Assembly: GCA_020536535.1 (NCBI GenBank)
Contig: JAHLWZ010000004.1
Span: forward strand, 404,884-457,672
Direction: 5' to 3'
DNA: 52,789 nt
DNA from: Pelomyxa schiedti
Lineage: Eukaryota; Protista; Evosea
Part shown: piece after piece, positions 5,301 through 46,672 of the stretch
Position numbering within the stretch: the stretch's first letter is position 1
How the letters are laid out: each line of letters starts with the position of its first letter
Notes under the pieces: model-generated
Databases searched by the model: none
The model's input: only the letters and a program-made list of their open reading frames with translations
What the model was told of the DNA's origin: nothing
Made by a program: the position numbers and the translations under genes

Positions 5301-8300
5301 ATCCTTCAGCCGTTTTTTCAATTGCCCCCTTGTGACGAGTTGATAAAAGAACATCTGCACAAGAAAAGAATTGTATTAGTGCTTAGAAGAATCAGTGTGT
5401 AAAGTGACAATACTGAGAAGAAGTTCGCCCAGTTGCTTCACCTGACTTACTGTGAGAAGTTCCTCAGATGTTTTACACGTTATGAGGGACACCAAAGCAC
5501 CAACGAGAAGGCTGGTCTCCTTGACACATAACCAGCAACAGACTGTAACGAGTTGACCCTCCTCACTTCTTAAATCTGGCGAGTGCTCGTGATTTTCGGT
5601 ACTTAATACATCGGGGTCATATCCCTCAGGTGCTAGATCTGCAACCACAGGCAATACTATTGCGGAAACCTTGTGTATGCATTCGCACAGATCAGACAGC
5701 AACGTCCGCAAAAGTGCACGTTCCTGGCTCGTGGAAGGAGCGTAAAAATGCGTGGTATCAACAATGTGGCGAAGAGCAGCCAGAAGGCCATGCATCGGAG
5801 CCTGACGAGCAGCAGCTATCAGGTTGCTAGAGGCAAGTGCCATTTGTGATTTCAATGCTTTAATAAGTTGGCTGGAGAAAGCTACTGCACTGATTGGAAG
5901 GGCCTGGGGGGCTGTCAAACTGGTGACAGAAATATGCCACTGTGAGTTCTCATCCACAGTAAGCTGAACGTCCCAGCTGCTCCCTTTGTTTATGTCACTT
6001 ACTAATAAGAGGAAAAAACGGCGAAAAAAAACCTGATATCAATTTGGTAAGAACAATGCAGAGGAGGCGGGCACCAGTGTCAGCCTGGAACATTCGAGGA
6101 CTGCGAATAAGGTGGACAGCCCACTGAAGCATAAGTTTAACTCCTTCAATGGATCCAAAACCGGGAAGTGGCTGAGGGAAAGATTGCAGAATACCAAAAA
6201 TCGCCAATCTGCATCTTTCCACTGGCGTACACAGAGCTCCCAATAGTAATGTGGCTTTTGCGGGTGTGTAAAGCTTTGGGTTTTGAGTAATTTTTATCTA
6301 TACAGTCAAGGTAACCTCAAAGAACTTGTTTTTGAAATCAGGTGGGAATGATTTCACAAGAATAGATAGTGACACTAAAGCAAATAGCATCCTTTCACGG
6401 CAAGCATTTGGATACAAGGTTGCAACAGAGGCATCAGCAAGCCAATTGGAAAATGCTCTGACCTGAGAATAAATTTGTTACAATATTGCCTGGGGGGAAA
6501 GAAGCAACCTGCTGCTCAACAGGAGACAGGGTATTTGTGGCTGCACGCACCCTATTTATGAATTTAGGAAGCAACCCAGCTATTTTTTGCCTCGAGTTTT
6601 GTGTTGTATGAGCAGAGCCAAGAAGCATGAAAGTGCGCATTAGTTGAAGCTGCATTCCAACAGTAATGTGAGTTTTTCGTTGATACGAAGGCTAAAACCT
6701 CAGCTACTGTCGGTGCTTCCAGTGATTTAGTGGATACTGTGATGAGCTCAAGCGCAGATAAACTGACAGCCTCCTCAGTGTGAGACAGACATTCACTTAA
6801 AAGAGAATCAAATGAGAAGGGGGTTTGAGCTTGCACTAAAGTCTACAATTGAGGAAGGGTGAACGAAATTGTGATGCAAGGTGCAGGCATACCTGTAATG
6901 AAGCAGAGTCTACCAAATCACTACTGCGTGCATATGTAAGGACAGAAATCAGGGTTTGAACAATTGCTTCATGGGGAGCTCCAGAAATGGAAATAGCGTG
7001 AACAATGTTTGGGATAGACTGGGGCATATGACGCAGAATTACAGGAAGGCTGTGTTCGGCCACGCGTGTAAAAGATTCATCCCCTTTGCCTGCTAAGCTT
7101 AAGAGTGTACTCACAAGAGGTGAAATTATTTGGCCTTCACAGAACTGTCTATCATGCATCTTTTTAAGGAGTTAAATTGCATTGAATGGTATTGTGGTAT
7201 TGATGATGAACCTTGGCCATTTTCTCCATGAAACTATCCAAAAAAAGGGAAGCTTGGAGACGGACTGTGAATACTCCCAGGGAAACAAGGGTTGTTTTTA
7301 CTATGTGAGGGCACATTTGTAGCATTTGTGTTGGCGTGATGTCACTCAACAAAGTTCTCTGCATTCCAGTTAAAAAAAAAACGGAAAAAATATGGCAAAC
7401 CAGAGGTGAGTATTTGGCTCGGTGCTCTCCAGAGAGATTCAGAATCTTCTGTACTAAGGACAGGACAAACTGGGGAACACCTTGTGCGTGAGGGAATATA
7501 GTACGATGCAGGTCCATGAGTATTGTGAAGTTCTGCTGGGACTGCTGAAGCACATTGGCAGCGGGGGTGTTCCAATGACGCCAAAGAATGTCTTTAGGGG
7601 AGTAAATTTGGAACACAATTGTGGAAGCCTGTACCAAGGGTGTCAACAAAAACAGTTTTGAAGAAAGCATCCCAGGAGACAAGAAATTTATTTCCTATTT
7701 CCTGGATAGAGATAAGCTGCTTAACTTCGAGAAAAATAGATACAGATAGGTCTGAGATTCCCGATATAACTTTCTGTAATCTGACAAGACATGCTTGTAG
7801 TGTCATAAGTGCAAAAAATGCATGAAACTGCACAGACACAGATTTACAGACACGTAGAGCAACAGGAAGAACCTAATATTATGGTGAAATATTTGTGGTA
7901 AAAAGTGTGTTACTTACGTAATCATACAGGAGAGTGCCAGATCTCCTTTCTCCTTCAAGGAGAGGAATTTGCAAAGTGAGATAATCCTCAGTCACGGGGG
8001 GAACAAGCACAACACCACGAATGATACTCATAAGTGGTAAGACACCAGCAGGTGAATGTAAAACAGTAATAGACTCAGTAGAAACAACCGGCAAACAGCT
8101 GACTCCCGCAGTGCCTGCTGATTGCTCCATCGAGGTTATTTTTACTGGTGTAAGAACCCGCTGAATCAGCATTGCCACACTTTTTGCACTTCCGCATAGG
8201 CACAATATTTGTGCAATAGCCATCCCTGATGAGGAGAGACATGATTTAGAACACCACTTTTGCAGGCATATTTGTATTAAAGCTTGCAAAAGCTCCTTAG

Positions 8301-9544: not shown

Positions 9545-11341
9545 TTAGTCTGGATACAAGTTAGGGAAAACTAAACAAAAGTGGATGCTCACCTGGTGCA
9601 CGTTTTCCTCAAGACGGGCCTGTGCCCTATGGCGCCTTTTTTCCGCTTCCCTTCTGAGGTGGTATGCTTCCTGTTTCATGGCCGCAATTTGCTCTCGTGT
9701 GAGTCCAATCCTCAAGTCATTCAGGGCGACCTTTCTGCTCGTATCACTCTCCGCAGTTACATCCACCATACCATATCTGTCACAATTGAAGGTCACAAGC
9801 ACCAGCTTTTCCCCATCTCTATTTGTGGGCAGCAGAGGCAGTTTAAACTCACCCAGACAGATACCCCTGCCTTGAATCACCCTGATTGTTACACTCGCAC
9901 TCCTGTTGCTGGTGTAGATATGACCCACAATCCTGAATGGAAACCCCTTGTTCTTTGGCACAATGACTTTCACTTTGGTGTCTGGTTTCTCGACACCAAG
10001 GCTGTGAGGAGTTACGTCAAGCAGCAGAATATCGTTAAGACAAGGGCTGGACTTGGCGGCGCCGGAGAGAATAGCAGCCTGCACAGCTGCACCATGTGCC
10101 GCGGCCTCCTCCCAATTACGGATATTGTTCGGCTGTAATCTGTGATCGAAAAGCTCTGAGACCAACTTCTGTATCATGGGGATCTGGGCGGATCCGCCAA
10201 CCATGATGACCTCACAAATGCTTATCTTAGAAACCGGTGGATCTTGAGATTGCAGTACTTGATCAATTAGGCCCACAGTTGATCTGAAAAACTGCTTGTT
10301 GACTTGCTCAAAAAAAGAGCGAGTAATCTTGCCCAAGTAGTTGATGCCAGCCAATAAGTCATTAATTTCCACAATGGCCTCTTCTTTCTCAGAAAGTGTT
10401 ATCTTGGCCCGCTCACAGGCAGTGCGAAGCATTCCCAGAGCTCTAGAATCACAATGCAGGTCCTTGTTGAATGTGGTCCTGAAGTCAGTTGCAAAGTGCT
10501 CCACCAAATTATGGTCGAGCTCCTCTCCACCAAGATGTGTGTTTCCAGCAGTCGCCAAGACATGAAGTACTCCTCCATTCGCAAGAAGTAGAGTGACATT
10601 CACTGTACCACCTCCAATATCGAAAACAACGATGTGGCCATCTTTTCGGTATCCCATAGCCACTGCAGTCGATTCATCTATGAGCCTAACTGGATGGAGA
10701 CCTGCGATTACCGCCGCGTCCCGAGTGGCTTTTCTCTGTACTTCGTTGAAATCCGCTGGGCACCTGTTGGGAGATATGCGGGATGAGAAGGATAAAGAGA
10801 AGCACAGGGACACAAACGTGATAACTGCCTGGTTGAACGACTTTCCCAAGTAGGATTCGGCAATATCCTTCATCTTTGCAAGGACCAGTGACAAAATTTC
10901 TTCTGGCGTGATCAACTTGATAATACCACAGTCTCTCACTTGAATAAGTGGGAGCCCAGAGTTGTCAACGATCTTGAACGGCCAGTTCCTCATGTCAGCC
11001 TGAAGGTTAGCATCCCCTGTCTTCCTCCCAATGATCCTCTTGATATCAAAAATGGTGCACTCTCGATTTCGCTCAATCTGCGCCACTGCCGCCTCCCCAA
11101 CGAGCGGCCCTCGGTCTGTGAACGCCACGCAAGTTGGAGTGGAGATGTTCCCCAGCTCGTTTGGCAGTACCTTCACCACACCACCCCTCCACACTGCGAC
11201 GCGACAATACGTAGTACCAAAGTCTATTCCAACACCGATGGGCTCCTCTGCAGCAGATGTTACCGGTAACGCCACGAACGAGGAACCTGTGGTTGTTCCC
11301 GCAGATCCCAATGCAGATGGAGGTACTGATGTCGCCGACAT
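9545..11341 (-). CDS. Hsp70-family chaperone, divergent cytosolic-type, with one 54-nt intron at 10764-10817
   Basis: Continuous 635-aa ORF with IDFGTTYCRVAV, DIGGGT, IKRIIGRK and the usual NBD/SBD collinearity (about 45% identity to Hsc70 by eye). The stretch AVIT[fvslcfslsfssrispnrc]PADFNEVQRKAT holds a gtttgt...caacag intron that happens to be in frame. There is an S/T-rich N-terminal extension; the likely start is MSATSVPPS at 11341. No C-terminal EEVD. Confidence 0.85.
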   Translation of the reverse strand: MSATSVPPSALGSAGTTTGSSFVALPVTSAAEEPIGVGIDFGTTYCRVAVWRGGVVKVLPNELGNISTPTCVAFTDRGPLVGEAAVAQIERNRECTIFDIKRIIGRKTGDANLQADMRNWPFKIVDNSGLPLIQVRDCGIIKLITPEEILSLVLAKMKDIAESYLGKSFNQAVITFVSLCFSLSFSSRISPNRCPADFNEVQRKATRDAAVIAGLHPVRLIDESTAVAMGYRKDGHIVVFDIGGGTVNVTLLLANGGVLHVLATAGNTHLGGEELDHNLVEHFATDFRTTFNKDLHCDSRALGMLRTACERAKITLSEKEEAIVEINDLLAGINYLGKITRSFFEQVNKQFFRSTVGLIDQVLQSQDPPVSKISICEVIMVGGSAQIPMIQKLVSELFDHRLQPNNIRNWEEAAAHGAAVQAAILSGAAKSSPCLNDILLLDVTPHSLGVEKPDTKVKVIVPKNKGFPFRIVGHIYTSNRSASVTIRVIQGRGICLGEFKLPLLPTNRDGEKLVLVTFNCDRYGMVDVTAESDTSRKVALNDLRIGLTREQIAAMKQEAYHLRREAEKRRHRAQARLEENVHQVSIHFCLVFPNLYPD

Positions 11342-11888
11342 GTTATTGTGCTTGTTGTTGGATCTCGCCCTGAGCGTTTGTGTTGTTATTTTTTTTGTGG
11401 TTATGAAATTATCCAGGTGATGAAGCCAAAAAAAGATCGACGCCTGTGGCACCCAGAATCATTTTGGTGGGCCATAGACGCCGTAGAAAGATGAAAGAAA
11501 AGAGGAATTGGGATTTTAGGTGCTTAGTTTTCAGACACGATTTAATTAACGTCAATACGCCACATAGATCTTGGGAAAAAGGGGTTTTCAGGAATGGACG
11601 CAGGGGATATGTCAAAGGGCTGACGTAATGACAGGTGTGACAAACGGGCTTAGATTTTCTATCCAAATATTTTTAGCTCGCCACAATTGGGTCAATTTGA
11701 AAAAAAAAACTGGAGGAAACAACAAACGGGAAACGGTTCCCGTTTTCTTGTTTTTTGGGATTTTTTTCTTTTTTGTTTGCCAGTTGAGTGTGTTTAGAAT
11801 ACTGCAAAACTGATTGTCATATGTAGTTTACATGGGCTCCACCATATTTATCGTAATGTATAGTTGTACAGTTGTCATAATCCCCCAG

Positions 11889-13190: not shown

Positions 13191-14023
13191 TCACAGAGTC
13201 ACATTGTCAAAGATGAAAGAGTAGTGCTCAGAGTGATCAGGAGGGTTGTCAATGACGAGAAGCTGGTTTGTTGAGGGGATCCACGAGGTCATAATCACTG
13301 ACCTGCCATATGAGGGGAGTGTGTTTCTGTAAGTGTCATCATACACCCCATGTGGTGTCAAACACCCCGGTAATCTCCCGACTCGTGTGTGCCTTTCCAA
13401 AGTAGAACTTCCCACACACAACAAACGCAAAGCCAGTCTGCCTCTTGACACGAGGGACAGTCCACGTCTGCAGGATTGCGAGGGAGTCAGGTTCCACCCT
13501 CGTGATGTGTATGTTGCCATTGTTGGGTGAGTGCACAACATACACCACACGCCCAGCATCAACATACCAGCACATGTCTGTGAACCCACCCCAGTCCCAT
13601 TCCGATTGCCCCGTGTGACCAGCTTCTGGTAGTGTTGCTGTTGCCACAGTTGATCCATCACTCACACGCACCTTGGTCATGGTGGCTGCATTGTATGGGC
13701 TGCAGTACACGTGGCCGTTGTGTGCTGCCTGGTATGTCCCACCAGGGTAGGGAGCTACGTCCTTGAGTGTGAATTGCCTTGGGTTGGTGTTGCTGATGAA
13801 GCTGGTCATGTTTTCAAACTCAATAAGTGGCTGATGATTGTAGGTGATGTCCCAATACACCTTCCCTGTAGAGTTGTCAATACACATCCTGACTGCCCGA
13901 CGAGGTGCGACGGATGGCACCATGCTGCCAAGTTGTTTGAGCGTCCGAGCAGCGGATGGACTGTCGATCACCTGTGGTTCTTGGGTACATTGAGTACAAG
14001 TGAGAAATTCGCCACTGGAGAAT
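13191..14023 (-). CDS. Olfactomedin (OLF)-domain protein, 3' exons. Further 5' exons probably lie upstream, possibly including the signal-peptide-like ORF at 15036-14755.
   Basis: ORFs 13971-13339 and 13661-13191 together align residue for residue with the myocilin/olfactomedin OLF domain. PEAGHTGQSEWDWGGFTDMCWYVDAGRVVYVVHS...IHITRVEPDSLAILQTWTVPRVKRQTGFAFVVCGKFYF...VFDTTWGVYDDTYRNTLPSYGRSVIMTSWIPSTNQLLVIDN matches [33 protein letters not shown]...[29 protein letters not shown]...AYDTGTG..IPFKNRYKYSSMIDYNP..KLFAWDN. An apparent 1-nt frame change sits at a GGGG run near 13340. Confidence 0.75.
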
Positions 14024-15336: not shown

Positions 15337-16389
15337 CAATTAACGTGCGCTTACTTTGCAGCGATTATTTCTTCAAGATCCTGCTCATTGGCGATTCGGG
15401 TGTAGGCAAAAGTTGCTTGTTGATCAGATTTGCGGTAGGTCATCTATTGGGGTTTGGGGTCTTCTTCCCAGGCTCAGTCCGTTATTTATAGGATGACGCG
15501 TGGACCGACACGCATATTGCTACAATTGGTGTTGATTTTGTATGCTTTCTCCGTGCATATTTCTCTCTCAAAATGCACAGAAAATAAAAACACTGAACTG
15601 TGATGGAAAAGTAATCAAGCTCCAAATTGTATGCAGTTAAGTTTTGCAGCCACTCTTCTTAACCTGTTTTTCTTCCCCTGTGCTAGTGGGACACTGCAGG
15701 CCAAGAGAGGTAAATTACCCAACAAAAAACAAAATTCCACATCTCAATTCCTTTAGATTCCGAACCATTACTAGTGAGCATCCCTTTTTTCCCCCAATTT
15801 CTGTAAACACAATTTTGTTTTCAGGCTCTTATTACCGTGGTGCGCAAGGAATTATCTTGGTGTTTGATTGCACAGGTTTGTCTCACATATTTATGTTTCT
15901 GGGTGACAGTTATGGCAGACATGGAGACTTACACCAATGTCAAGCAATGGCTTGGTGAGATAGAACGGTACGCCTGTGAGAATGTCAATAAAGTACTGCT
16001 CCCACCTTGTTGTCTAATTACGTTAACACTTATTAGCTTCTTGTGGGTAATAAAACGGATCTTGTTGACCAGCGAGTTGTACAGACAAGTCTTGCAAAGG
16101 TTTGTTAGTACCAAACCTTTTTGGTTTGCTCTTAAATAAGGAAGGAATTTGCTGAGAGTATGGATATTCCATACATAGAGGCCTCCGCAAAAGCAAATAT
16201 TAATGTGGAGGAGACTTTCATGAAAATGGCCAGAGCAATAAAAGACAGGTCTTTACCCACTTTCAATACCAAGCCGATGTTAATATCTACTTAGACTGTC
16301 AAATTCTACAGTTGAAGCCACACCGGCACCAAAACCTTTGAAACCTGCAAAACCACTGGGTAGTGGCGGTTTCAAATGTTCTATTTGAG
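15337..16389 (+). CDS. RAB1: Rab1/Ypt1-family small GTPase with at least 7 small exons (introns 34-58 nt)
   Basis: Spliced product reads ..[24 protein letters not shown]|[16 protein letters not shown]|[16 protein letters not shown]|WDTAGQER|[21 protein letters not shown]|[31 protein letters not shown]|[19 protein letters not shown]|[35 protein letters not shown]|..[21 protein letters not shown]. Introns include a 34-nt one (gtttgtctc...gtgacag). The N-terminal exon and the exact C-terminus are unresolved. Confidence 0.85.
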
Positions 16390-17504: not shown

Positions 17505-17674
17505 CGCCTTGGAGTTGACCCACTCACGTCGAAAAACTTCCCCCTTGGCAACGAACGTTCTTTGAATTTGTGATCAGGTGCCAAGAGAAATTCGTTTTTT
17601 TATTGTTTCAGAAACCGAAAAAAAACCGATAGAGGGGGCAGAGGCTGCCTCTGGGTGTATTAAACTTAGATCTT

Positions 17675-19690
17675 ATGCCATCACGAATAAAGCCGCAACA
17701 ACCGCGGCTGGTGAAGCGTATACAACATGTCGCTGGTGGTGCTTTGAGATCTCACCTTGTTGGATTGTCGCACTCATCGGTGGACGCTGTTGTAAAGTCT
17801 TACGTGGTGCCTTCGTCGCCACCGGAAGAGCAGCTGGAAAAAGTGGTTTTGGATCCACCTAAACTCGAATCCCCTGTGAGTGTGATGCCGGCTTTGATTG
17901 ATGTGGCGAATGCAACTTTGCCAGGAGCCTCTTTACCGCCTGTTGACATAGGAAGAGATGAGTTTACTTCCGACGACACACACGGAACATGGGCACATAG
18001 AGTGGCGAAGGTGACATTTTATTCTTTTTTCAAAAAGAAAACATGGGTCACTAACGTGAGAGAACTTTTTAACCTTAACAAGGTCTATGACCCCTCTTCT
18101 ATGGAAAAGCTACCCTATTTCCCAGAGGCATATTTTGTTGCCAGGCGAGACGTTCTTTCCCGGTCTTATGTGCAGAGGTCATCTATTATCGTAATTGAAC
18201 TTCATATTGGAGGTTTCTACGTAAGACAAATACATGCTCTTACCTACACTCTTAGTTGATGCCTTGAGTAAGTATTACTTTCGGGTTCTAGTTATTCGTG
18301 GTTCCAGAGAGAAAATTGATACTGGAAATGCCACCAAGGGAATAATGTACGCGAGCACACTTAGTGATGCACAAGCCATCTATGGGTCTCTTGTGCGAGA
18401 GAAGGTCGTAATTAATGATACAAATACAATCTTAAAGAAAATAGACCTCAAACATGAACAAGTATAAAAAGATCATTTTGTCATTTGCAAATATGGGAAC
18501 AAGCACAAGTACCCTTTCTCTCATTGAAGAAATTACCTTACACATGCTGCTAAGTTACACCAGTTTCTGCTTTATCAAAAGACGTTCGAGATCTTCTCCT
18601 TCATTTATACAAGGAGTGTGCTCTACAGCTTTCTAATAAACAAATCAACTTCGATAAAGTTTCTCCTCCTCAAATTGAAAAAGCCCTTGTTGTTCTATAC
18701 AAAATGCGAGAAGTATGATATCACACTGGATGCCAGTCATTTTTTTAAAACAAAAAATAAGGAGCTGAAATCCAATGATGTCATAGAGGCTACAAAAGCG
18801 TCTGCCCTTTCTTCCGAATTTTTTTCTCTTGTTCCAGTTGGGCAATCTAGGCAAAAAGTTTTTCCACTCCTTCTACTCCACTTTTACACTGTTTCTAGTT
18901 GATTAGCACAATGGAACAAGTCTTGGAGTGGCTAGATTTATTACAGTCGATGAAAGATCTTACAAATCTTGGAGAGGCCTCCTTTGATATGAGTGGAAAT
19001 TTAAATGATGTTGACATGCTGTCTGCAGCACTAATTTCCCATTTTATATGACTCTAAACAAAATGAAGATACTACTCTTTAGGTTGCGATATTGACCTGG
19101 TCAGTCCGTCGTCATCAGAATATGCAAATATTGTTGAGATTATAGGTCAACGCAGGCAGCGTAACGGAGGAGGGCCTCTTACAATAGGAAAGATCTTCAA
19201 AGCACATAGACATATGGATTTATCATCATTTACTAATGGAATATCCAATCATCAATTGTTATTCCATGGAACTGCAATAGGTCTCACTTTCACTCTCTTC
19301 TCGTCCACTCACTTAAAGCAAGGGAATTGGCTTGGTATATTGTCAAGAGGCATGCTTCTGCCCCAAGTGGTCGTTAAGCTAGGAGTTAAACGTACCAATG
19401 CTGGAAATATGGGGGCTGGCCTTTACTTCGCCGATGATCCTATGACAGCCTTGAAGTATTCCGCTACTGGTGCCATGGGTGCTATGGGTACTAAGTATGT
19501 TTGCATTCTTTCAACCTTTGTTTAACCCATTCTAAGATACCTATTGCTATCCAATGTAGCTCTTGGAACAGTTAAAGATTTGTATAAATTTGACTCGAGC
19601 CTTAGCTCACCACCCCCTGGATTTGATAGTTGTCACGGCGTAAAAAGAACAGCAACATCACCAAGTGATTTTGATGATGATGAGTAATAT
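17675..19690 (+). CDS. Gene with a C-terminal PARP catalytic domain (exons about 19214-19473 and 19557-19690, probably continuing); the N-terminal 1.5 kb is of unknown function
   Basis: LLFHGTAIG...LGILSRGMLLPQVVVKLGVKRTNAGNMGAGLYFADDPMTALKYSATG..ALGTVKDLYKFDSSLSSPPPGFDSCHGVKRTATSPSDFDDDE aligns with the PARP1 catalytic core ([49 protein letters not shown]...GEVALGNMYEL...). H and Y of the H-Y-E triad are present. The position of the catalytic Glu reads GAMGAM|ALG, with no Glu visible. The last codons are followed by gtaata, a plausible donor. Confidence 0.65.
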
Positions 19691-19939
19691 CTCCCAAAGC
19701 TTGACATCTCAAGAGCTGACCTTCCAATAGATTTATTATTTACAATACATCGCAACAACACGTGCAATACTTGATTGAAGTTGACAGCCCCGGTGTGACA
19801 ACAATCTCAAGCACTCCTCTCTTGTCCCCTCCAAAAAAGCCTAGACCAATTGGGCAACTATCAACATCTATTCCAGAAGCTCTCCCCGACCTTCCTCCAG
19901 TAACAATATCCTAGTACCTCACATACAACTCATGTCTTT

Positions 19940-22200
19940 CCATGTTTTCCCAGTCAAATGAAAAGGCTGGTCTTATGTCTAGCTCAGGGACTCCCGTACC
20001 TTTGGAGGCCGTAAGCATTCACGCAAAACTCATTGGTACCTTGGCAGCAAAATTCTCATTATTTATCTTTCCGGATAGATCTTGTGGCGGAAGTGGTGAT
20101 GTTACAAGAATTCAACAATGTTGGGGATGAACCCATAGAAGCTAAATATGTTTTCCCGCTTGACGAAAAATCTGCTGTTGTTGGCTTCGAGGCATTTATC
20201 AATCGTACTTTACAAAGAAAAGAACCCTACTAACTGTGAATAGACAAACACATTGTTGGTGTTGTTAAGGAGAAGGAACAGGCACATAAGGAGTACAAGG
20301 CAGCTATAGAACGAGGTGATGGTGCCTATCTCCTGGATGAAGCTAAGTCAAGTGTTTTTACTGTATCTGTTGGAAATCTACCTCCAAAAACCAAAGTGGT
20401 GATCAAAATTTCATGTAAGCACCTCATCTCTAAGCCGCACACGTAATTACTTGACATTGTCAGATATTACGGAACTTGCTATTGAAGGAAATGCACGTAA
20501 ATTTGTTTGTCCAATGAATCTTGTTGGTCAACAAAAGCACAGTGCCCTAGCACAAGTTTCTCAATCTACCACAAAAACTGTAAATACAGTACAACCTCAG
20601 GTGAAAATAATTCATCTATCTTCTTTTTTTAAGTACATTAGGGTACGTTCTATATGGAGATTTCCATTAATATGCCCCACGTCATTCACGCTATTGAGAG
20701 CCCCTCCCACTCCATTCGTTACAAATCAACACCAAAGAAAGCAACACTGTTCTGGCTTGATCCCAGTTTGCTTTTTTTTTTTTAAATCAAATCGAACTAA
20801 CATTCATGCAGATCCCCCCACAACCGATTTCATTCTTCTTGTCCGGCTGTGTGATGTCCGTACTCCGTTCATGTGGGTAGAACGAACACCCACAGATATA
20901 TCCGTTCCTGAAGTGGAGGAACATGTAGCTATGGTTGCATTGTACCCTTCTCTTTCCGAAAATCTTCTATCCAACTCAGAGTGTTCGTCTTACCTCCCAT
21001 CTTTTTGTGCTGATATTTTAATAAAGACACCCTTCTTATTGATCAATCTGCCAGTATGATTCCTTCTCTCTCAGTGTGCAAACAAGTGGCCCATCACCTT
21101 GGTATGAACTACTGTGCTTCCTACGAAATATATTCATAAAACAAGTCCGAGGAATTCCGCTGATGGCTTCTTTTAATATTATAACATTTGGCTCTGTGTT
21201 TGAACCACTGTTCCTTTCGCCAATTTTAAAAACTACCAGTTCTGCTGATCAAAGTGCTCTCTCACATATTTCTGTACTTCACAAAAAGTACTATTCATAG
21301 TGATAACATCATCAGAAACTCCAAGGTGACTGGGGAGCCAGTATTCTTTGGCCAGCGCTAAAATCCACACTCTTACAAATCGAAATCAGAGACAAGATGC
21401 CAAAATCCAGCACTGATTCATTGATTTCCAATCTTTTCATTATTACCGATGGTGATTTTTCTCATGATTCCCAAGTTTTCGATGTGTGTTTAAAAAACCA
21501 AACATTAACTTAACACCAACACTTCAAGCTCATCCGTGATCACTGCCAAAGGCCTGGAAATAAGACACGTATATTTTCTTTTGGGATTGGGACAGAAGTA
21601 CATAGGCACAACATTTTCACACTTGCCCGCCTTGGAGGTGGCGCTGCCGAATTTGTTGCCTCCAATAACCCACTTCGACGGCAGGTTCTAAATCTTCATT
21701 CAATAGTAAAAACGTGCTAATCTGTATCCTCAAATAGGTGTCAAGGCAACTGGAGCGGGCACAACAACCTTGCTTAAAAGATATTTCTGTAGAGTGGGGT
21801 GCACGTCATAGTGTTGCAGGTCCTGTGAAGCAAGCGCCACATAAGCTCATGTCCCTATTCAGTGGAGAACGCGTAATCATTTTTGCTTTTATTCCTCAAG
21901 ATTGCCACCAGGTATGTGCATCAGTGTCTTGCACAAAACCTGAAGGAATGAAAGGTTACCCTCCAAGCAGGCAGAAGTGATTCAGAAGAGAAATTTCAAA
22001 TAACTGTGACGTCCAACCTTGCTGAAACTGTTACGGGGCTAATGTTGCATAGACTTTGTGCTCGATCTGTGGTGAGGTATAAAACAAGCACCTCAACTAT
22101 TTTCCTCATTAAATGAAGAGACTGGGAAGATCAGTGCATCGCAGAGGACAGTGTATCAAGTGAGCTGGCAAGAGTTCAAGTGAGATCTTTTGAAGGCATA
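19940..22200 (+). CDS. VIT domain plus von Willebrand factor A domain protein. Possibly the 3' half of the same gene as the PARP domain, which would give a PARP4 (vault-PARP)-like architecture.
   Basis: VIT reads YVFPLDEKSAVVGFEAFINRTL | IVGVVKEKEQAHKEYKAAIERGDGAYLLDEAKSSVFTVSVGNLPPKTKVVIKISC. vWA reads TLLIDQSASM (MIDAS DxSxS) ... SFNIITFGSVFEPLF ... LFIITDGDFSHDS ... RIFSFGIGTEVHRHNIFTLARLGGGAAEFVASNN. Post-vWA conserved block is LKDISVEWGA...KLMSLFSGERVIIFAFIP. All are split by short introns. The 3' end is unresolved. Confidence 0.7.
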
Positions 22201-22744
22201 TCTCTTTCTAAGAAATGTGTAGAGAAAAGGGGAGATAATAGAATTGGGAATTCGGTACTCTCTTGCCACCACCTTAACCTCCTTTATCGCTGTAGAGGTA
22301 CTTCCTTTCACGTTTCCTTTTCTATTTTAAGTTCCAGTAGGAAAGAAGTGAAGAAGAGAAAAAAGGGTATCTTTTACAATACTGCACTAAATTGAAATAA
22401 AAGTATCACAGTTTAGTGAAATTAAAACCCACACCTCCGATAACTGAGCTGGCAAAGAGCGAAAAAGTTGACGAACTTCCGTTTTGTACAAATTGGAAGG
22501 AGGCAAAGAAAGAATTGTTTCAGTTAAACAGCATTCCTTTTAGGTACTCCTCGCTTCATATTAGTCAGTCATCTTCTAATTTACCTGAAAAAGTGAGAGG
22601 AAGAACTATGGAAGGGCGTACCACTCTACTGTGTATGATTTTTGGGCTCGGGCACCAGCAGAGACGCCTTTACCACCCTTAAACACAAATAATCCCTGTA
22701 ACTGCAAAATTTAACCACAAGTAGTATATTAATAGCTTTTCCCT

Positions 22745-23416
22745 ATGATAGATTGGACCCTAACATTCCCTGAGCAAGTTCCTGTGCGGCACGATCTCTT
22801 TGGCTTCATGCAGGATCAAAATGTCTCAGTAGAACTATTGTGTAAAAAGAAAAGCAGAATGCCAGGCATCCTAGCTCGCCGCAAGAGGGAAACGTTCTCC
22901 AATGCACTTTTCTGTGAAGATTCAGAGCTTAGTATAGCGCCCTGTTGTTCTAGTTCATCATCCAGGGGACTTATGTATTCCCCACTATCTCCCCCATGCA
23001 TGGAGGCGGAGGAGGATTCCTTTTGTGCAGAAGAAGAAATGTACGCACCTCCCATGCGACTCGCTTCACCAGCAGCGTCAGCCGCCGCCGCACCACCACC
23101 ACCACCACCACAAGCAGCAGCAGCACCATCTAAGGCTCTGCCACCCCCAACTACTACGCCGTCGCCTCCTTCTGCAAAACCCCAAAGCGCCAAGGCAGCA
23201 GCACCGCGGGCACAAGAGGACAAGAGGAAGGCCGATAGAAGAGCACGGTGTGAAGAAGAGGTGGAGAATGTAAAGAAGGTAATGAGGGAAAATATTGAGC
23301 ACGTGTTGGAACGAGGAGAGAGGATTGAGTGCCTTCAAGACAAGTCAGCTGATTTGGCATACGCTGGTGCAAGGTTCAAATCACTGTCCTCTCAGAGGTT
23401 ACCCCAATTTTTGTAG
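22745..23416 (+). CDS. R-SNARE (synaptobrevin/VAMP-like SNARE motif) protein apparently lacking a transmembrane anchor
   Basis: C-terminal VENVKKVMRENIEHVLERGERIECLQDKSADLAYAGARFKSLSSQ aligns with VAMP2 [45 protein letters not shown], including the zero-layer Arg. The ORF ends QRLPQFL* with a TAG at 23414-23416 and AATAAA at 23433-23438. The N-terminal 150 aa is low complexity (poly-A/P). Confidence 0.55.
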   Translation: MIDWTLTFPEQVPVRHDLFGFMQDQNVSVELLCKKKSRMPGILARRKRETFSNALFCEDSELSIAPCCSSSSSRGLMYSPLSPPCMEAEEDSFCAEEEMYAPPMRLASPAASAAAAPPPPPPQAAAAPSKALPPPTTTPSPPSAKPQSAKAAAPRAQEDKRKADRRARCEEEVENVKKVMRENIEHVLERGERIECLQDKSADLAYAGARFKSLSSQRLPQFL

Positions 23417-23432
23417 GCACGTTGTCTAACTG

Positions 23433-23438
23433 AATAAA
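23433..23438 (+). promoter_or_regulatory. AATAAA polyadenylation signal
   Basis: 17 nt after the TAG stop of the SNARE-like ORF. Confidence 0.5.
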
Positions 23439-23502
23439 GGTATTGCTGTTCGGCCCCTTCGTATGCGCCGATTTCACTGGCCTGCGATTCTTCTTATTCT
23501 AG

Positions 23503-23906
23503 GAAAAAAGCTGGCTGTTTTATAGCCACTGCTGCATTTGGTACTCCGATGGATACCAGGATAAATGTTTTGCGTTGCTTCAGGTTCGTTGCCCCAAGCA
23601 GGAGAACGAACACTCCTCACCCTTTGTAGAGACACAACTCTGCACAGCCATTGGCTAGGGCGGTCCTTCACTGCCCTTTATTATACACTTTCCCCGCCAG
23701 TTGCCACGTGGCTGACAAAGCACCCTCTAGCCTGCGCACTCACCAGGACGGCTTTCCTTGTACCAGTAGTCCTGTTACTTGAACACTGTGGATACTCCAA
23801 ATGTACGGATGTGGATCACAACAAAGCCGCCAAGCAGACACTCCTCTGGGCTTTGGCGATTTTGTTGGTGCCCTTCCTTCTCATCCTCTCCGTACTCGTT
23901 CTGTGA
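23503..23906 (+). CDS. Small membrane protein carrying a prokaryote-type CFIATAA(Y/F)G domain. Exons about 23503-23583 and 23630-23906 are resolved; a 5' exon is not resolved.
   Basis: Spliced (gttcgt...ttgtag, 46 nt) product reads ..KKAGCFIATAAFGTPMDTRINVLRCFR|DTTLHSHWLGRSFTALYYTLSPPVATWLTKHPLACALTRTAFLVPVVLLLEH...KQTLLWALAILLVPFLLILSVLVL*. The N-terminal 70 aa match, position by position, the CFIATAAYGTP...(I/V)LR.FRD..L....GR.FV..YY..SPP.A..I..HP.L.P..R..L.P.V pattern I recall from archaeal/bacterial secreted-protein C-terminal domains. It ends in a predicted TM helix. No in-frame ATG lies in the exon; an ATG at 23463 (MRRFHWPAILLIL, signal-peptide-like) is in another frame. Confidence 0.5.
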
Positions 23907-24023
23907 CAGTAATTGTATCAAAAGAAAAAAAAAATGCGAATAAGCGAAGGAAATAAGAAAAAACAGGATTTTCTATTAACCTTGCAGTTGCACATAATTA
24001 ATTAAAACCCCTGCAGATCAGAC

Positions 24024-24477
24024 ATGAGCAGCGCCGGGACAACGGGCAGCAGCAAGACACACACAACCACTAAAAAACCACAAGCACTCAAGTCGAAGAC
24101 ACGCAGAAAGAGTGGTGGGCGTGTGGCGAGCGTAAAACGGAATGCAAAGACCAGAAAGGGCGCATCGAAGAAAATGCTGTCAGGCAAGTCCAAAGCGCGG
24201 TCGAAACGAACAGCGTTGAAGAGCGCCCCGGTTCCTCTCGTGGGGAAAGCTGCACTTCAAAAGCGTTTGGATGAGGTGTGCACCACGGTCTTCTTGCCAT
24301 TCAATAAGTAAATGTAACTGTTCTATTTAAGCTCTTGGAGCCTTTCACCCGCAAAAACCGTAAAAGCCGCTCTGCTGACTGGCCGACAGCTTCCAAGGAA
24401 GTTGTAAAACTTCTGGATACCTACAAAACTCCTCAAGGTGGCAATGTCAACGAAAAAAACCAAAAATAACCCTACAA
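24024..24477 (+). CDS. Hypothetical lysine/arginine-rich (basic, probably nuclear) protein, 2 exons
   Basis: ORF 24024-24311 is followed by a gtaaat..tttaag intron and a second exon ending in TAA near 24475. No family is recognised. Confidence 0.3.
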
Positions 24478-32183: not shown

Positions 32184-34166
32184 ATGCCTGTAACAAAACA
32201 CCACTCCCGCAACAAGAGAAAGAAAACACCAAACCCTAAAAAACCAAACAAAACAGGCCGTCCCACCTTGCCCCACAACACAAACGCCCCAACAAACACA
32301 ACAACCAAGGACGGCACAGCCACCAGCCAAACCCATAATAAGAAGAAAAAAGTACCCACACCGGCCGTATCCCCCACACTTGGAATCTTGTGTTGCCCAA
32401 CCACGCCTTCGCTACTTTGTTGTGGAATGTTCGGCGGCAGTGCTCAGCCGTCTCCCATAATCCCGAACCGCCTGTACCTCGGCGACGAATTACACGGCTG
32501 CTCGCGGCGCACTTTGAGGCTGTGCGGAGTGACTCGCGTGTTGTCTGTTGGCGAGCGCGCGTTCGAGCTTCCCGGCGTGTTGTTGATGCACCACGCAATG
32601 AGCGATTATGGGAGGTCAAACCTCACGAGGCTGCTGCCGTCTTTTTTCAGATTCATCGACGAATCTCTGGCTAGAAACCAATGCCAAATTGATGATACAT
32701 GCACAAATACCAATCCAAATCCAAATCCAATCACAAACACCAATTCCAACAGCAACAACAATGACCCAACCCAACTTTTTCTGGGAAAGGTTGCTTCTCC
32801 ATTGAACCGTTCCCCTGTAACATCACCAATAACATCCCCTTCCCAGTCTCCTGCGCTTATGTCTGTTATGTACAACCAGCCAACTTACACACTGTCACCT
32901 CACTCTGCTTCCCCTCAGCGCTCCACATGTGCTTCTTCTTCTGGTGCTGTACTGGTACATTGTGCTGCCGGAGCAAACAGGTCTCCGGTTGTGGTTATAG
33001 CATACCTCATAGCAAGATGCGGGCTAACTTTAGCCGAGGCCGCCACCCATGTGAAGTCTCTTAGACCCCAAACTCATCCTTGTATATCTTATATGGAGCA
33101 GCTTCTTACGCTGGAATATGAATGCTTCGGCTCTAACTCCTGGAAGTTAAGCGAATTTGCAATGGCCATGCAAGGAAAACCTTCTGTGCAGACCATTCAA
33201 CTTACTGCCGTTAATGACACGGTGGTTGTATCCCAGATGCCCACTTCTCCAAAACCCTCACCAAAGGCACAACCTTCCCCAAAAGGGCAGCCTTCTCCAA
33301 AAGCGCCACCATCCCAAATGGCACCGCCCAAACTAGTGCCACCACCACTTACCACCCAATATGTAAATCTAACAAATCCAACAGTTACATCAACCCACTT
33401 GCAGGGAACACCCGTTACTCTTCCGCCATTCAATCCAATACCCTCCTCACACTCAAATCCAACACTTTTTCCACCTTCGAAACAAAACGCACTGCCCTCT
33501 GACAAGCCTGCCGAAAGACAATATACTCCATTCACAATTGCCGCGATAGCACTTGCCACCGCGCTAGGCCCAGCGGCTACCGGAACAAGGAAAGTAGTTC
33601 CGCAAAAAGAAGCACCTCCCGGTCCGAAGCTGCCGCCGATTCCTCCTAAGCACAAGGATGACATTTTGATGGTTACACCCATTCCTGCAACCCAAAGCAC
33701 AAACACCAACTCCAACTCTAACATCAGCATCAGCACCAGCACCAAAATCACAACAGACCCAATAAAGAACCTCTCCCCACTACCCCCGCAAGCACCTCTC
33801 ACAAATACAACCACCAATATGCCGACATTAATGACAAACAAAACAGCCATCACAGGAATCAATTTCTACAAGACACCCAAGGAGAAACAGACACTTCCAC
33901 CCTTGGTTAACAAAAAGCATTCGCCAAGCTCACTCCCCAACAAAACCCCACACAAGCCAGTCACATCACTCTCCCCATCATTGTCATATCCCGGTGGATC
34001 CAGCAACACTTCTGGGAACACTGGGTGTAATGCAAAGTGGGATTGGACCAGCTGTGGTGTACATTACTCCAAGCAGCCAATACCACACACAGGCCACCAA
34101 TTTAGCTTCTGCAGAGAGCTCCCCACACTGCCCAATAGTTGTGTGGGTGCAGGGCTCTCTATGTGA
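32184..34166 (+). CDS. Dual-specificity protein phosphatase (DUSP/MKP-like) with long low-complexity P/S/T/N-rich regions. The functional start is probably the ATG near 32430.
   Basis: Single 660-aa ORF. PNRLYLGDE...GVTRVLSV...VLVHCAAGANRSPVVVIAYLIARCGLTLAEAATHVKSLRP matches the DUSP fold and the HCxxGxxRS catalytic loop. It contains (CCAAAT)n and PSPK repeats. Confidence 0.8.
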   Translation: MPVTKHHSRNKRKKTPNPKKPNKTGRPTLPHNTNAPTNTTTKDGTATSQTHNKKKKVPTPAVSPTLGILCCPTTPSLLCCGMFGGSAQPSPIIPNRLYLGDELHGCSRRTLRLCGVTRVLSVGERAFELPGVLLMHHAMSDYGRSNLTRLLPSFFRFIDESLARNQCQIDDTCTNTNPNPNPITNTNSNSNNNDPTQLFLGKVASPLNRSPVTSPITSPSQSPALMSVMYNQPTYTLSPHSASPQRSTCASSSGAVLVHCAAGANRSPVVVIAYLIARCGLTLAEAATHVKSLRPQTHPCISYMEQLLTLEYECFGSNSWKLSEFAMAMQGKPSVQTIQLTAVNDTVVVSQMPTSPKPSPKAQPSPKGQPSPKAPPSQMAPPKLVPPPLTTQYVNLTNPTVTSTHLQGTPVTLPPFNPIPSSHSNPTLFPPSKQNALPSDKPAERQYTPFTIAAIALATALGPAATGTRKVVPQKEAPPGPKLPPIPPKHKDDILMVTPIPATQSTNTNSNSNISISTSTKITTDPIKNLSPLPPQAPLTNTTTNMPTLMTNKTAITGINFYKTPKEKQTLPPLVNKKHSPSSLPNKTPHKPVTSLSPSLSYPGGSSNTSGNTGCNAKWDWTSCGVHYSKQPIPHTGHQFSFCRELPTLPNSCVGAGLSM

Positions 34167-45984: not shown

Positions 45985-46672
45985 TTAAACATTCGTTCGA
46001 ATTTGCCAACAGCCAGCCACAAAAACAGGGGGTACAGTGTGGGACTCTGGGATTGTGCTCAGCAAGTACCTGGAGCACCGGGCTGGGCTCAGCCGGCCTC
46101 TAGTCCACTCAGACCACACAGTGCTAGAGCTAGGCAGCGGCACCGGGCTGGTATCCATTGCCTGTGCACTCCTTGGCGCCCGCACAGTTGTGGCCTCTGA
46201 CCTCAATGACCCCTCTCTACTCTCCCTGCTGCGCTCTAACATCCAATCCAACATAATGACAGCTTCGTCTGGTTCTGGTTCATCATCATCTTCTTCTTCT
46301 TCACCTTCACCAACATGCAATGTGATTGTGTGTGCCATTGACTGGTCCTGCCCACCACCTTGGTCAGCACTTGCTCCTGCGGACTCAGCAGCCTGTTGGC
46401 CTGAGTATCCTGATGTGGTTGTCTGCTCTGACCTTGTTTACTCTGACTCTGCCGCTGAGCCTCTGGCCCGTTGCTTGGGACTCTACTGTGGACCTGACAC
46501 TGTAGTACTATTCGCATACGAAGCTCACAAATTCGAGGCCACCAAGCTGTTCTTTTCACTGGTTCGTCAGTCCTTCGACATTGAACCTGTGCAACCTTGT
46601 GACCTGTGCCCTGGGTACTCATGTGGTGGCGTGTATGTTCGAATTCTCAAAAGAAAACCAAAAAACACATAA
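45985..46672 (+). CDS. Class I SAM-dependent protein-lysine methyltransferase, family 16 (METTL21/FAM86/Nnt1-like)
   Basis: VWDSGIVLSKYLEHRAGLSRPL...VLELGSGTGLVSIACALLGARTVVASDLND ... VIVCAIDW ... VVVCSDLVY matches the MTase-16 family signature. The 5' exon was not located; the tracked ORF starts on GTG after an acceptor AG. Confidence 0.75.

What the first reader, a model, noticed from the sequence alone, without database searches (positions are those of the whole stretch)
19214..22200. PARP catalytic domain followed by VIT and vWA domains: vault-PARP (PARP4)-like architecture, with the catalytic glutamate apparently absent
The PARP catalytic core (HGT...GILSRGM...GAGLYFADD) is followed 250 bp downstream on the same strand by a canonical VIT domain and a vWA domain with an intact MIDAS DxSxS. 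That is the domain order of PARP4. The last PARP codons sit before a gtaata donor-like sequence rather than a convincing terminator, which supports a single gene. At the position of the catalytic Glu (GEVALG in PARP1) the best splice gives GAMGAM-ALG, suggesting an H-Y-(non-E) triad. That would be a mono-ADP-ribosyltransferase-like or inactive variant.
Basis: partly seen in the sequence, partly recalled or inferred. Interest (0 to 1): 0.55.

Follow-up and report, generated by a model that had tools for sequence, protein, structure and literature searches.

The report
Amoeba PARP4 gene, catalytic glutamate intact
This is the middle of one 31-exon gene of the anaerobic amoeba Pelomyxa schiedti, already deposited as PARP4 (the vault-type ADP-ribosyltransferase); its catalytic glutamate is present, encoded by a codon split across an intron, and the only unusual part is a membrane-anchoring tail outside the reported coordinates.

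Summary
They belong to one + strand gene, 17675-23906, with 31 exons and 30 GT-AG introns (39-72 nt, median 44). Its translation is identical to the 1617-aa GenBank protein [quoted passage not shown]. Human PARP4 is by far the best solved-structure match (E 3e-51, against about 1e-17 for PARP1-3). Animal PARP4s align over 97% of the core.

The claim that the catalytic Glu is lost is wrong. The catalytic Glu of PARPs (PARP1 E988, PARP4 E547) lies in the "(D/N)E(F/Y)hhY" strand, not in "GEVALG". Here it is E529 in DFDDDEFIIYNT. The triad H418-Y457-E529 is complete.

Differences from animal PARP4:
- There is no BRCT domain.
- There is no detectable similarity to the animal C-terminal (vault-binding) region.
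- The tail instead carries an R-SNARE motif with its zero-layer Arg, a prokaryote-type CFI-box-CTERM module, and a C-terminal hydrophobic anchor.

Verdict: an ordinary, already annotated PARP4 core, with an undescribed tail variant. Whether Pelomyxa has major vault protein could not be tested.

The parts
17675..23906 (+). Whole gene: 31 exons, 30 GT-AG introns (39-72 nt, median 44), 1617 codons plus TGA. The product is identical to GenBank 'protein mono-ADP-ribosyltransferase PARP4 [Pelomyxa schiedti]' (P0001).
17675..18010 (+). Exon 1: N-terminal ~112 aa with no recognisable domain. The BRCT of animal PARP4 is absent. The start MPSR(I/L)KP is shared with paralogue P0002.
18083..18404 (+). WGR-like beta domain (about aa 113-205). 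It aligns with the WGR region of animal PARP4 (PxFPxxF...VxELH).
   Evidence: Alignment. AF2 model: four strands plus a helix, pLDDT 75-90. Foldseek aligns the whole model, ~490-500 columns, to PARP1/PARP2 WGR-CAT chains.
18575..18967 (+). Helical (PARP regulatory) domain
   Evidence: Pfam PARP_reg E 4e-9; alignment to the human PARP4 helical domain
19070..19785 (+). ADP-ribosyltransferase (ART) domain, aa 353-547, interrupted by introns 19281-19322, 19495-19536 and 19684-19730
   Evidence: Pfam PARP E 8e-26; human PARP4 8sx1 E 3e-51; Foldseek TM 0.82-0.84 to 8sx1/8sx2
19265..19267 (+). Triad His, H418 (= human PARP4 H438)
19424..19426 (+). Triad Tyr, Y457 (= human PARP4 Y477)
19495..19536 (+). 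42-nt intron (GTATGT...CTAAG). Splicing it gives GTKYLLLSNVALG.
19682..19731 (+).
19900..19953 (+). 54-nt phase-0 intron joining the ART/linker exon to the first VIT exon
19969..20519 (+). VIT domain
   Evidence: Pfam VIT E 2e-34, VIT_2 E 3e-12
20979..21663 (+). vWA domain: MIDAS D861-x-S863-x-S865 at 21041-21055, D968 at 21448-21450
   Evidence: Pfam VWA_3 E 2.5e-11
21738..22753 (+). Post-vWA region conserved in the paralogues, partly also in animal PARP4 (...LHRLCAR..RDWE.., RKGEII.LG.RYSLATTLTSFIAVEER, DE(L/I)PFCTNWK, NPxWxL)
23252..23395 (+). R-SNARE (synaptobrevin-type) motif, aa 1430-1477, with the zero-layer Arg R1450 at 23312-23314. It lies in the same exon (22752-23397) as PARP4-family sequence.
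   Evidence: Pfam Synaptobrevin E 3e-11, 43 bits against a 26.4-bit cutoff. PDB hits are R-SNAREs only; VAMP8 E 2e-8..
23513..23795 (+). CFI-box-CTERM module (CFIATAAFG...LRCFRD...YYxxSPP), split by intron 23584-23629
   Evidence: NCBIfam NF041770 E 2.5e-22, 78.5 bits against a 40-bit cutoff; AF2 all-alpha, pLDDT >90
23838..23903 (+). C-terminal hydrophobic segment (TLLWALAILLVPFLLILSVLVL) ending the protein; a putative tail anchor
   Evidence: Kyte-Doolittle 2.9 over aa 1592-1617; predicted helix

Best explanation
The finding is the central third of a single Pelomyxa schiedti gene that encodes a clade-5 (PARP4, 'vault-type') ADP-ribosyltransferase.

Shown by the evidence:
- The domain order is WGR-like, helical domain, ART, VIT, vWA.
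- The H-Y-E triad is complete (H418, Y457, E529).
- The vWA MIDAS motif is intact.
- The C-terminal tail is specific to this lineage: an R-SNARE motif, a CFI-box-CTERM module and a terminal hydrophobic helix.

Inferred function:
- The ART domain binds NAD+ and transfers single ADP-ribose units, as human PARP4 does. The acceptor-site residues that stop chain elongation in human PARP4 (N471, T484, E544/D545) are kept here as N451, T464 and D526/D527.
- VIT-vWA acts as a metal-dependent protein-interaction platform.
- There is no N-terminal signal peptide and the only strongly hydrophobic segments are at the extreme C-terminus. The protein is therefore most likely tail-anchored, with the enzyme facing the cytosol.
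- The R-SNARE motif lies about 115 residues from the anchor, too far to drive membrane fusion. It more plausibly docks the enzyme onto Q-SNARE complexes, in the manner of tomosyn.
For: - Gene model: it stays open through 31 exons and equals the deposited protein. The published models were made with Augustus and refined with PASA/EVM using transcriptome data (PMC8887013).
- Family: human PARP4 E 3e-51 against about 1e-17 for PARP1/2/3. Animal PARP4s show 33% identity over 97% of the core, E 1e-155. Foldseek's best match is the PARP4 catalytic domain, TM 0.84.
- Triad: conserved in all four Pelomyxa paralogues and in the animal PARP4s aligned. Human triad residues are from PMC10711553.
- Mono-ART determinants: taken from PMC10711553 section 18 and mapped.
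- Single gene: conservation crosses the ART-VIT junction, and the Met at 19979 is not conserved.
- Tail: Synaptobrevin and CFI_box_CTERM both score above their curated cutoffs. The zero-layer Arg aligns with the Arg of VAMP8's LARGEN. The SNARE motif and PARP4-family sequence share exon 29. An intron splits the CFI-box. An independent metagenomic ORF, P0149, joins the PARP4 post-vWA region to a coiled-coil, a CFI-box and a hydrophobic end in one ORF.
Against: - I could not inspect transcript data for this locus, and there is no enzymatic or localisation data.
- The tail-anchor topology is inferred from hydropathy only.
- In bacterial CFI-box proteins the box follows secreted-type domains and is followed by a transmembrane segment and an Arg-rich end. 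That implies an extracytoplasmic box, the opposite side from the one proposed here.
- The SNARE motif occurs in only one of the four paralogues.
- P0003's SNARE-like look failed testing.
- Whether Pelomyxa has major vault protein was not tested.
Confidence: 0.85

Rival explanations
1. One reading: a PARP4-like protein that has lost the catalytic Glu (an H-Y-non-E triad), so it is a divergent mono-ART or an inactive pseudo-enzyme.
For: The position aligned with the Glu of PARP1 'GEVALG' is Asn (N486, LLSNVALG).
Against: - That Glu is not the catalytic one. PARP1 E988 lies in 'NEYIVY' (established knowledge of PARP1 numbering).
- Human PARP4's catalytic Glu is E547 (PMC10711553), and in the HMMER alignment it pairs with E529 of DFDDDEFIIY.
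- The DDE(F/Y) motif is conserved in every PARP4 aligned.
- Human PARP4 itself has Asp at the 'GEVALG' position.
Confidence: 0.03
2. Two adjacent genes: a PARP-only gene ending at TAG 19912-19914 (with intron 19900-19953 retained) and a separate VIT-vWA gene starting at ATG 19979.
For: - Read-through of the 19900 donor meets a stop after 4 codons.
- An in-frame ATG exists at 19979 (MSSSGTPVPL...).
- Gene spacing in this window is very tight: TGA at 23906, next ATG at 24026.
Against: - A canonical 54-nt phase-0 GT-AG intron joins the two ORFs.
- The residues encoded upstream of that ATG (SNEKAGL) are conserved with the paralogues and the animal PARP4s. The Met itself is V, I or Q in other sequences.
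- All four Pelomyxa paralogues and all animal orthologues are fused.
- The deposited, transcriptome-refined model is fused.
Confidence: 0.04
3. The SNARE/CFI-box/transmembrane tail is an annotation artefact: a neighbouring small SNARE-like or bacterial-derived gene wrongly merged onto the PARP4 model.
For: - The exons between 22298 and 22751 are short, and I placed their junctions by eye.
- The CFI-box is otherwise a prokaryotic module.
- Paralogue P0008 shows signs of a merged model.
Against: - Exon 29 is one 646-nt open exon. It starts with the paralogue-conserved NPxWxL segment and ends with the complete SNARE motif.
- The CFI-box is interrupted by a spliceosomal intron (23584-23629).
- P0002, P0003 and the metagenomic single ORF P0149 all carry PARP4 post-vWA sequence followed by a CFI-box and a hydrophobic end.
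- The short-exon peptides are conserved among the paralogues.
Confidence: 0.05
4. A classical vault-resident PARP: it sits inside vault particles bound to major vault protein, as in mammals, and the tail is irrelevant to its localisation.
For: - Full-length orthology of the core to animal PARP4.
- The related archamoeba Mastigamoeba balamuthi has two MVP paralogues (PMC12547018).
Against: - No significant similarity to the C-terminal part of animal PARP4 (residues 1251 to the end), best E 0.086. From my own knowledge, that part contains the MVP-binding region.
- The protein ends in a hydrophobic anchor instead.
- No MVP in this window.
- Vaults can exist without PARP4 and PARP4-like proteins without vault domains (PMC4245714).
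Confidence: 0.15

Closest known systems
Human/animal PARP4 (vPARP, ARTD4; clade 5 PARPs)
   Same: - WGR-like, helical domain, ART(H-Y-E), VIT and vWA in the same order, alignable over about 1,100 residues at 33% identity.
- The same triad, and the same acceptor-site residues that limit the human enzyme to mono-ADP-ribosylation.
- An intact DxSxS.
   Different: - No N-terminal BRCT.
- No detectable counterpart of the animal C-terminal (MVP-interacting) region.
- Instead, an R-SNARE motif, a CFI-box-CTERM and a terminal hydrophobic helix.
- Four paralogues in one amoeba, against usually one in animals.
Amoebozoan PARP4-like proteins with appended domains (Perina et al. 2014, PMC4245714)
   Same: Lineage-specific expansion of clade 5 PARPs in Amoebozoa, with extra C-terminal modules added to the PARP-VIT-vWA core.
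   Different: The appended domains reported there are 14-3-3, actin or actin-binding, and ubiquitin-related. SNARE, CFI-box or Rab-like tails are not mentioned in the passages I read, and Pelomyxa was not yet sequenced.
Tomosyn/amisyn-type proteins (large soluble proteins with a C-terminal R-SNARE motif and no adjoining transmembrane segment)
   Same: An R-SNARE motif at the end of a large non-SNARE protein, not placed to drive fusion. This is a possible model for docking onto Q-SNARE complexes. The comparison comes from general knowledge and was not tested here.
   Different: No sequence relationship outside the motif. Here a CFI-box and a membrane anchor follow the motif, and the body of the protein is an ADP-ribosyltransferase.
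Prokaryotic CFI-box-CTERM proteins (NCBIfam NF041770)
   Same: The same ~69-residue module (CFIATAAYG...LRxFRD...YYxxSPP), about 35-50% identical, at the C-terminus and followed by a hydrophobic helix.
   Different: - Bacterial examples follow secreted-type domains (FN3, Big, RHS, esterases) and end in an Arg-rich cluster.
- Here the module is in an intron-containing eukaryotic gene, after a cytosolic enzyme, and the protein ends at the hydrophobic helix.
Intracellular VIT-vWA proteins (VWA5A/BCSC-1, Dictyostelium Vwa1; PMC10539598)
   Same: A cytoplasmic VIT-vWA cassette used for protein-protein interaction. That paper places the PARP-linked forms as an intracellular clade in Amorphea.
   Different: Those proteins have no PARP domain and no membrane tail.

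Membership tests
PARP4 / clade 5 PARP | ART domain with the H-Y-E triad | tested here: met
   H418, Y457 and E529 align with human H438/Y477/E547
PARP4 / clade 5 PARP | Closer to PARP4 than to PARP1/2/3 over the helical and ART domains | tested here: met
   E 3e-51 for PARP4 against about 2e-17 for PARP3/PARP1. Foldseek's top hits are PARP4 structures 8sx1/8sx2.
PARP4 / clade 5 PARP | A VIT domain followed by a vWA domain C-terminal to the ART, in one polypeptide | tested here: met
   Pfam VIT 2e-34 and VWA_3 2.5e-11. Junction conservation. The model is identical to the deposited protein. No transcript reads were inspected.
PARP4 / clade 5 PARP | WGR-type domain before the helical domain (described for human PARP4 in PMC10711553) | tested here: met
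   Aligns with the animal PARP4 WGR region. AF2 beta domain. The full-length Foldseek alignment reaches PARP1/2 WGR-CAT chains. Pfam WGR itself does not hit, as expected: the W-G-R residues are not conserved in human PARP4 either.
PARP4 / clade 5 PARP | N-terminal BRCT (an animal PARP4 feature) | tested here: not met
   No Pfam hit in aa 1-232. BRCT is present in elephant PARP4. The BRCT block is absent from all four Pelomyxa paralogues. PMC4245714 describes BRCT as a feature of animal members, so it does not define the clade.
PARP4 / clade 5 PARP | C-terminal major-vault-protein interaction region / residence in vaults | tested here: inconclusive
   No significant BLASTP similarity between animal PARP4 residues 1251 to the end and the Pelomyxa proteins, but that region evolves fast. 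No MVP in the window. Presence of MVP in the Pelomyxa genome could not be tested with these tools.
R-SNARE (synaptobrevin/VAMP) | SNARE motif matching the Synaptobrevin profile, with Arg at the zero layer | tested here: met
   Pfam 43.4 bits against a 26.4-bit cutoff. PDB hits are only R-SNAREs. R1450 aligns with the Arg of VAMP8's LARGEN. Identifying that Arg as the zero layer rests on my own knowledge of VAMP2 R56 / VAMP8 R37.
R-SNARE (synaptobrevin/VAMP) | Transmembrane anchor or lipid anchor immediately after the motif; a small protein (with or without a longin domain) | tested here: not met
   The motif ends at aa 1477 and the anchor spans 1592-1617, with a CFI-box in between. The protein has 1617 aa. 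So it contains an R-SNARE motif but is not a canonical R-SNARE.
CFI-box-CTERM (NF041770) | Match to the curated model above its cutoff, located at the C-terminus | tested here: met
   78.5 bits against a 40-bit cutoff; 89-93 bits in paralogues P0002/P0003
CFI-box-CTERM (NF041770) | Prokaryotic context: follows secreted-type domains and is followed by a transmembrane segment plus a basic cluster. This is my reading of the examples, not a curated definition. | tested here: not met
   Bacterial examples. Here the gene is eukaryotic, contains introns, has no signal peptide, and the protein ends at the hydrophobic helix.

The most novel reading that the evidence does not exclude
Pelomyxa (and related uncultured amoebae, as in P0149) may have rewired the vault-type PARP into a family of membrane-anchored ADP-ribosyltransferases. 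In this reading the MVP-binding end is replaced by a bacterial-type CFI-box anchor, possibly acquired by domain-level transfer from prokaryotes. Named CFI-box hits here come from Thermodesulfobacteriota, Nitrospiraceae and Dehalococcoidia, and Pelomyxa hosts a Syntrophus symbiont. In this paralogue a functional R-SNARE motif would dock the enzyme onto Q-SNARE complexes, so that it ADP-ribosylates the membrane-traffic machinery. A sister paralogue ending in a Rab5-like domain points the same way.
Probability: 0.25. Interest if true: 0.6.

Novelty: new variant of a known kind. Interest (0 to 1): 0.3.

Why it matters
For the finding as written, little changes. It is a correctly recognisable, already deposited PARP4 homologue, and the supposed loss of the catalytic glutamate came from looking at the wrong motif and missing a split codon.

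The tail is worth a note for people who study PARP evolution or SNAREs. A PARP4 core fused to a bona fide R-SNARE motif, a prokaryote-type CFI-box and a terminal anchor is not described in any paper I could search. The CFI-box itself has no literature and no solved structural relative. It adds to the known tendency of Amoebozoa to hang new modules on clade 5 PARPs. It also suggests that these enzymes need not be vault components.

Tried and rejected
- My first two junction choices (18221-18272 and 18405-18462) were replaced by 18213-18255 and 18405-18444 after comparison with the paralogues and the deposited protein.
- I first assigned the SNARE zero layer to K1460. Renumbering VAMP2 and the HMMER alignment to VAMP8 put it at R1450.
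- P0003's 'IIRQQDECLDRIE' looked like a Qc-SNARE. Pfam SNARE gave E 1.2 and there were no PDB hits, so I rejected it. P0149's coiled-coil also gave no SNARE hit.
- MVP in the window: tblastn with a human MVP sequence recalled from memory gave only noise, E of 2 or worse.
- No Rfam family (vault RNA included) and no tRNA in the window.
- The look-up of encoding contigs does not hold the Pelomyxa contig.
- The full-length word-indexed search was swamped by low-complexity words and returned only 7 hits. Repeating it with the core alone worked.
- Searches for another protein combining SNARE and CFI-box: candidates with long or double matches had no Synaptobrevin hit.
- Literature: nothing on the CFI-box. 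Nothing on vault, PARP or SNARE in the Pelomyxa genome paper. No paper combines PARP4 and synaptobrevin.


Full report
**1. What is in the sequence**

The window has eukaryotic gene structure: short open segments in shifting frames, separated by GT..AG gaps of about 40-70 nt. I chained these into a + strand gene running from ATG 17675 to TGA 23906. After correcting two junctions against the paralogues, the model has 31 exons and 30 GT-AG introns of 39-72 nt, median 44.

Its translation is identical, residue for residue, to a 1617-aa GenBank protein named [quoted passage not shown] (P0001). The window is therefore from this anaerobic archamoeba. The genome paper says its gene models were made with Augustus and refined with PASA/EVM using transcriptome data, with 7.4 introns per gene and 98.4% GT-AG. 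It does not mention vault, PARP or SNARE (PMC8887013).

**2. Checking the observation**

Pfam finds these domains in the product:

| Domain | E-value |
|---|---|
| PARP_reg | 4e-9 |
| PARP | 8e-26 |
| VIT | 2e-34 |
| VWA_3 | 2.5e-11 |
| Synaptobrevin | 3e-11 |

- The MIDAS motif D861-x-S863-x-S865 lies at 21041-21055, and D968 lies in ITDGD.
- The "gtaata" is a real donor, for intron 19684-19730. It lies inside the ART domain, not at its end. The following exon (19731-19899) encodes the last ART strands and the linker. A 54-nt phase-0 intron (19900-19953) then leads into VIT.

**3. The catalytic glutamate**

- phmmer against all PDB sequences puts human PARP4 first: E 3e-51 for the helical plus ART domains, against about 2e-17 for PARP3 and PARP1.
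- The PARP4 structure paper labels the human triad H438, Y477, E547 (PMC10711553). Counting along the alignment, these pair with H418, Y457 and E529 here.
- E529 sits in DFDDDEFIIYNT, opposite human DFEDDEFVVYKT. This is the strand that holds PARP1 E988 ("NEYIVY"; PARP1 numbering from established knowledge).
- The Glu codon is GA (19682-19683) plus A (19731), so it only appears once the 47-nt intron is removed.
That Glu is not catalytic. The position is D in the vertebrate PARP4s, Q in a rotifer, and N or R in Pelomyxa.
However, it removes the (R/K)YLLL(S/C)xV strand conserved in all PARP4s. The 42-nt intron 19495-19536 keeps that strand and is the junction in the deposited model.
- The triad is conserved in all four Pelomyxa paralogues and in the animal sequences aligned.
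- The residues that the structure paper holds responsible for mono- rather than poly-ADP-ribosylation in human PARP4 are N471, T484 and E544/D545. They correspond here to N451, T464 and D526/D527. The predicted activity is therefore mono-ADP-ribosylation. This is an inference.

**4. One gene or two?**

A two-gene reading is formally possible. Retaining intron 19900-19953 gives a stop after four codons. An ATG lies at 19979. Gene spacing in this window is tight: TGA at 23906 and the next ATG at 24026.

Against the two-gene reading:
- The intron is canonical and in phase.
- The peptide encoded upstream of that ATG (SNEKAGL) is conserved with the paralogues and with animal PARP4s, while the Met itself is not conserved.
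- Four Pelomyxa paralogues (P0001, P0002, P0003, P0008) and all animal orthologues have the fused order.
- Animal PARP4s align at 33% identity over 97% of the 1,133-residue core, E about 1e-155.

I could not inspect RNA-seq data.

**5.

*N-terminus.*
- No BRCT is detectable, and the BRCT block of animal PARP4 is absent from all four paralogues.
- The segment 18083-18404 aligns with the animal PARP4 WGR region.
- An AlphaFold2 model of aa 100-552 (mean pLDDT 71.7) folds this segment as four strands plus a helix.
- Foldseek ranks PARP4 catalytic-domain structures first (TM 0.82-0.84). It then aligns the whole model, about 490-500 columns, to PARP2 and PARP1 WGR-CAT chains.
- Human PARP4 is described as BRCT-WGR-CAT, with the W-G-R residues themselves not conserved.

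*C-terminus: the SNARE motif.*
- BLASTP finds no significant similarity between animal PARP4 residues 1251 to the end and the Pelomyxa proteins.
- Instead, aa 1430-1477 match the Synaptobrevin profile above its cutoff.
- In the PDB this segment hits only R-SNAREs: VAMP8 at 2e-8, then VAMP4, Snc1, Nyv1, VAMP7, Ykt6, Sec22b and VAMP2. R1450 lies opposite the Arg of VAMP8's LARGEN, which is the zero-layer Arg by my knowledge of VAMP numbering.
- The motif lies in the same 646-nt exon as the paralogue-conserved NPxWxL segment, so it is not a merged neighbouring gene.

*C-terminus: the CFI-box and anchor.*
- About 25 residues after the SNARE motif comes a module that matches NCBIfam CFI_box_CTERM (NF041770). 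It scores 78.5 bits against a 40-bit cutoff here, and 89-93 bits in P0002 and P0003.
- The protein ends in a 22-residue hydrophobic helix (Kyte-Doolittle 2.9).
- The CFI-box is very common in prokaryote-dominated data. The word-indexed search gave more than 4,000 hits. The exhaustive HMMER search gave 14,950 representatives at E ≤ 1e-3 (a count that also includes matches to the SNARE part of the query) and 1,101 at E ≤ 1e-10.
- Named hits come from Thermodesulfobacteriota/Deltaproteobacteria, Nitrospiraceae and Dehalococcoidia. There the box follows FN3, Big, RHS or esterase domains and is followed by a transmembrane segment and an Arg-rich end.
- In this gene a spliceosomal intron (23584-23629) splits the box, which argues against contamination.
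- A metagenomic single ORF (P0149) carries PARP4 post-vWA sequence, a coiled-coil, a CFI-box and a hydrophobic end. The PARP4-CFI fusion therefore exists outside this genome's annotation.
- I found no other protein combining an R-SNARE motif with a CFI-box.
- No paper in the library mentions the CFI-box, and none combines PARP4 with synaptobrevin.

*The fourth paralogue.* P0008 ends in a Rab5-like Ras-family domain (E 5e-44). That model looks partly mis-joined.

**6. How it most likely works**

*Shown:* a PARP4-family enzyme with a complete NAD+-binding and catalytic triad, an intact vWA MIDAS, an R-SNARE motif, a CFI-box and a C-terminal hydrophobic helix.

*Inferred:*
- It has mono-ADP-ribosyltransferase activity like human PARP4.
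- VIT-vWA serves as an interaction platform (for comparison, PMC10539598).
- The protein is tail-anchored with the enzyme in the cytosol, because it has no signal peptide and only C-terminal hydrophobic segments.
- The SNARE motif lies about 115 residues from the anchor. It would dock onto Q-SNARE complexes rather than drive fusion.
- Vault association is open. Mastigamoeba balamuthi has MVP paralogues (PMC12547018). I could not search the Pelomyxa genome, and the window holds no MVP, vault RNA or other Rfam family.

**7. Comparison and novelty**

Clade 5 (PARP4) PARPs are known from Metazoa and Amoebozoa. They are expanded in Amoebozoa with appended 14-3-3, actin or ubiquitin-related domains (PMC4245714). 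The R-SNARE + CFI-box + anchor tail is, as far as I could search, an undescribed variant of that known theme.

Interest is modest at 0.3. It would rise if the tail proved to target ADP-ribosylation to the membrane-fusion machinery, or to derive from bacterial gene transfer.

Noticed in passing
protein P0008 (a Pelomyxa paralogue, not in this window): A fourth PARP4 paralogue ends in a Rab5-like Ras-family domain (E 5e-44). The match starts at profile position 22, so the P-loop is missing, and a stray P-loop-like 'VVVVGGTNVGKSS' follows it. This is either a real PARP4-Rab fusion or a mis-joined gene model.
   Followed up: partly
window 23513-23795; proteins P0027-P0283: The CFI-box-CTERM module is very abundant in prokaryote-dominated metagenomes (1,101 cluster representatives at E ≤ 1e-10). 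It has no literature and no solved structural relative. It is predicted as a compact four-helix unit ahead of a transmembrane helix. It also occurs on eukaryote-looking proteins, for example P0082, which has a signal peptide, a folate-receptor domain and a CFI-box.
   Followed up: partly
locus L001 (JGI metagenome 3300048575), 193-2058: An uninterrupted 621-aa ORF from an environmental contig encodes the PARP4 post-vWA region, a coiled-coil, a CFI-box and a hydrophobic end finishing in CCC. It is an uncultured relative with the same tail design but no SNARE motif.
   Followed up: partly
window 13339-13971 (-): An open segment with an olfactomedin-like domain (Pfam OLF, E 4e-22). That domain is mostly known from animals, so it is unexpected in an amoeba.
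   Followed up: no
window 9545-11452 (-), 5376-5957 (-), 32184-34166 (+), 42931-43542 (+), 46037-46672 (+): Neighbouring genes: Hsp70, a THADA/DUF2428-like protein, a dual-specificity phosphatase embedded in long low-complexity Pro/Thr/Asn-rich sequence (the region of strong negative GC skew), a TPR protein, and a lysine methyltransferase. None is related to vaults or PARPs.
   Followed up: partly
window 17565-17675 and 23906-24026: Very tight gene spacing. The nearest upstream open frame ends about 110 nt before the PARP4 ATG. The next downstream ATG, which starts a basic Lys/Ser/Thr-rich protein, is 120 nt after the PARP4 stop.
   Followed up: no
window 15644-16139 (+): Open segments containing Rab-type small-GTPase motifs (for example '[13 protein letters not shown]') just upstream of the PARP4 gene. 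The one piece scanned gave no Pfham-level support: no Pfam hit. The gene was not modelled.
   Followed up: no
window 18011-18082: The first intron (72 nt) is in frame, has no stop codon, and is the longest in the gene. It contains an ACTAAC branch-point-like sequence. Retaining it would insert 24 residues without breaking the ORF.
   Followed up: no
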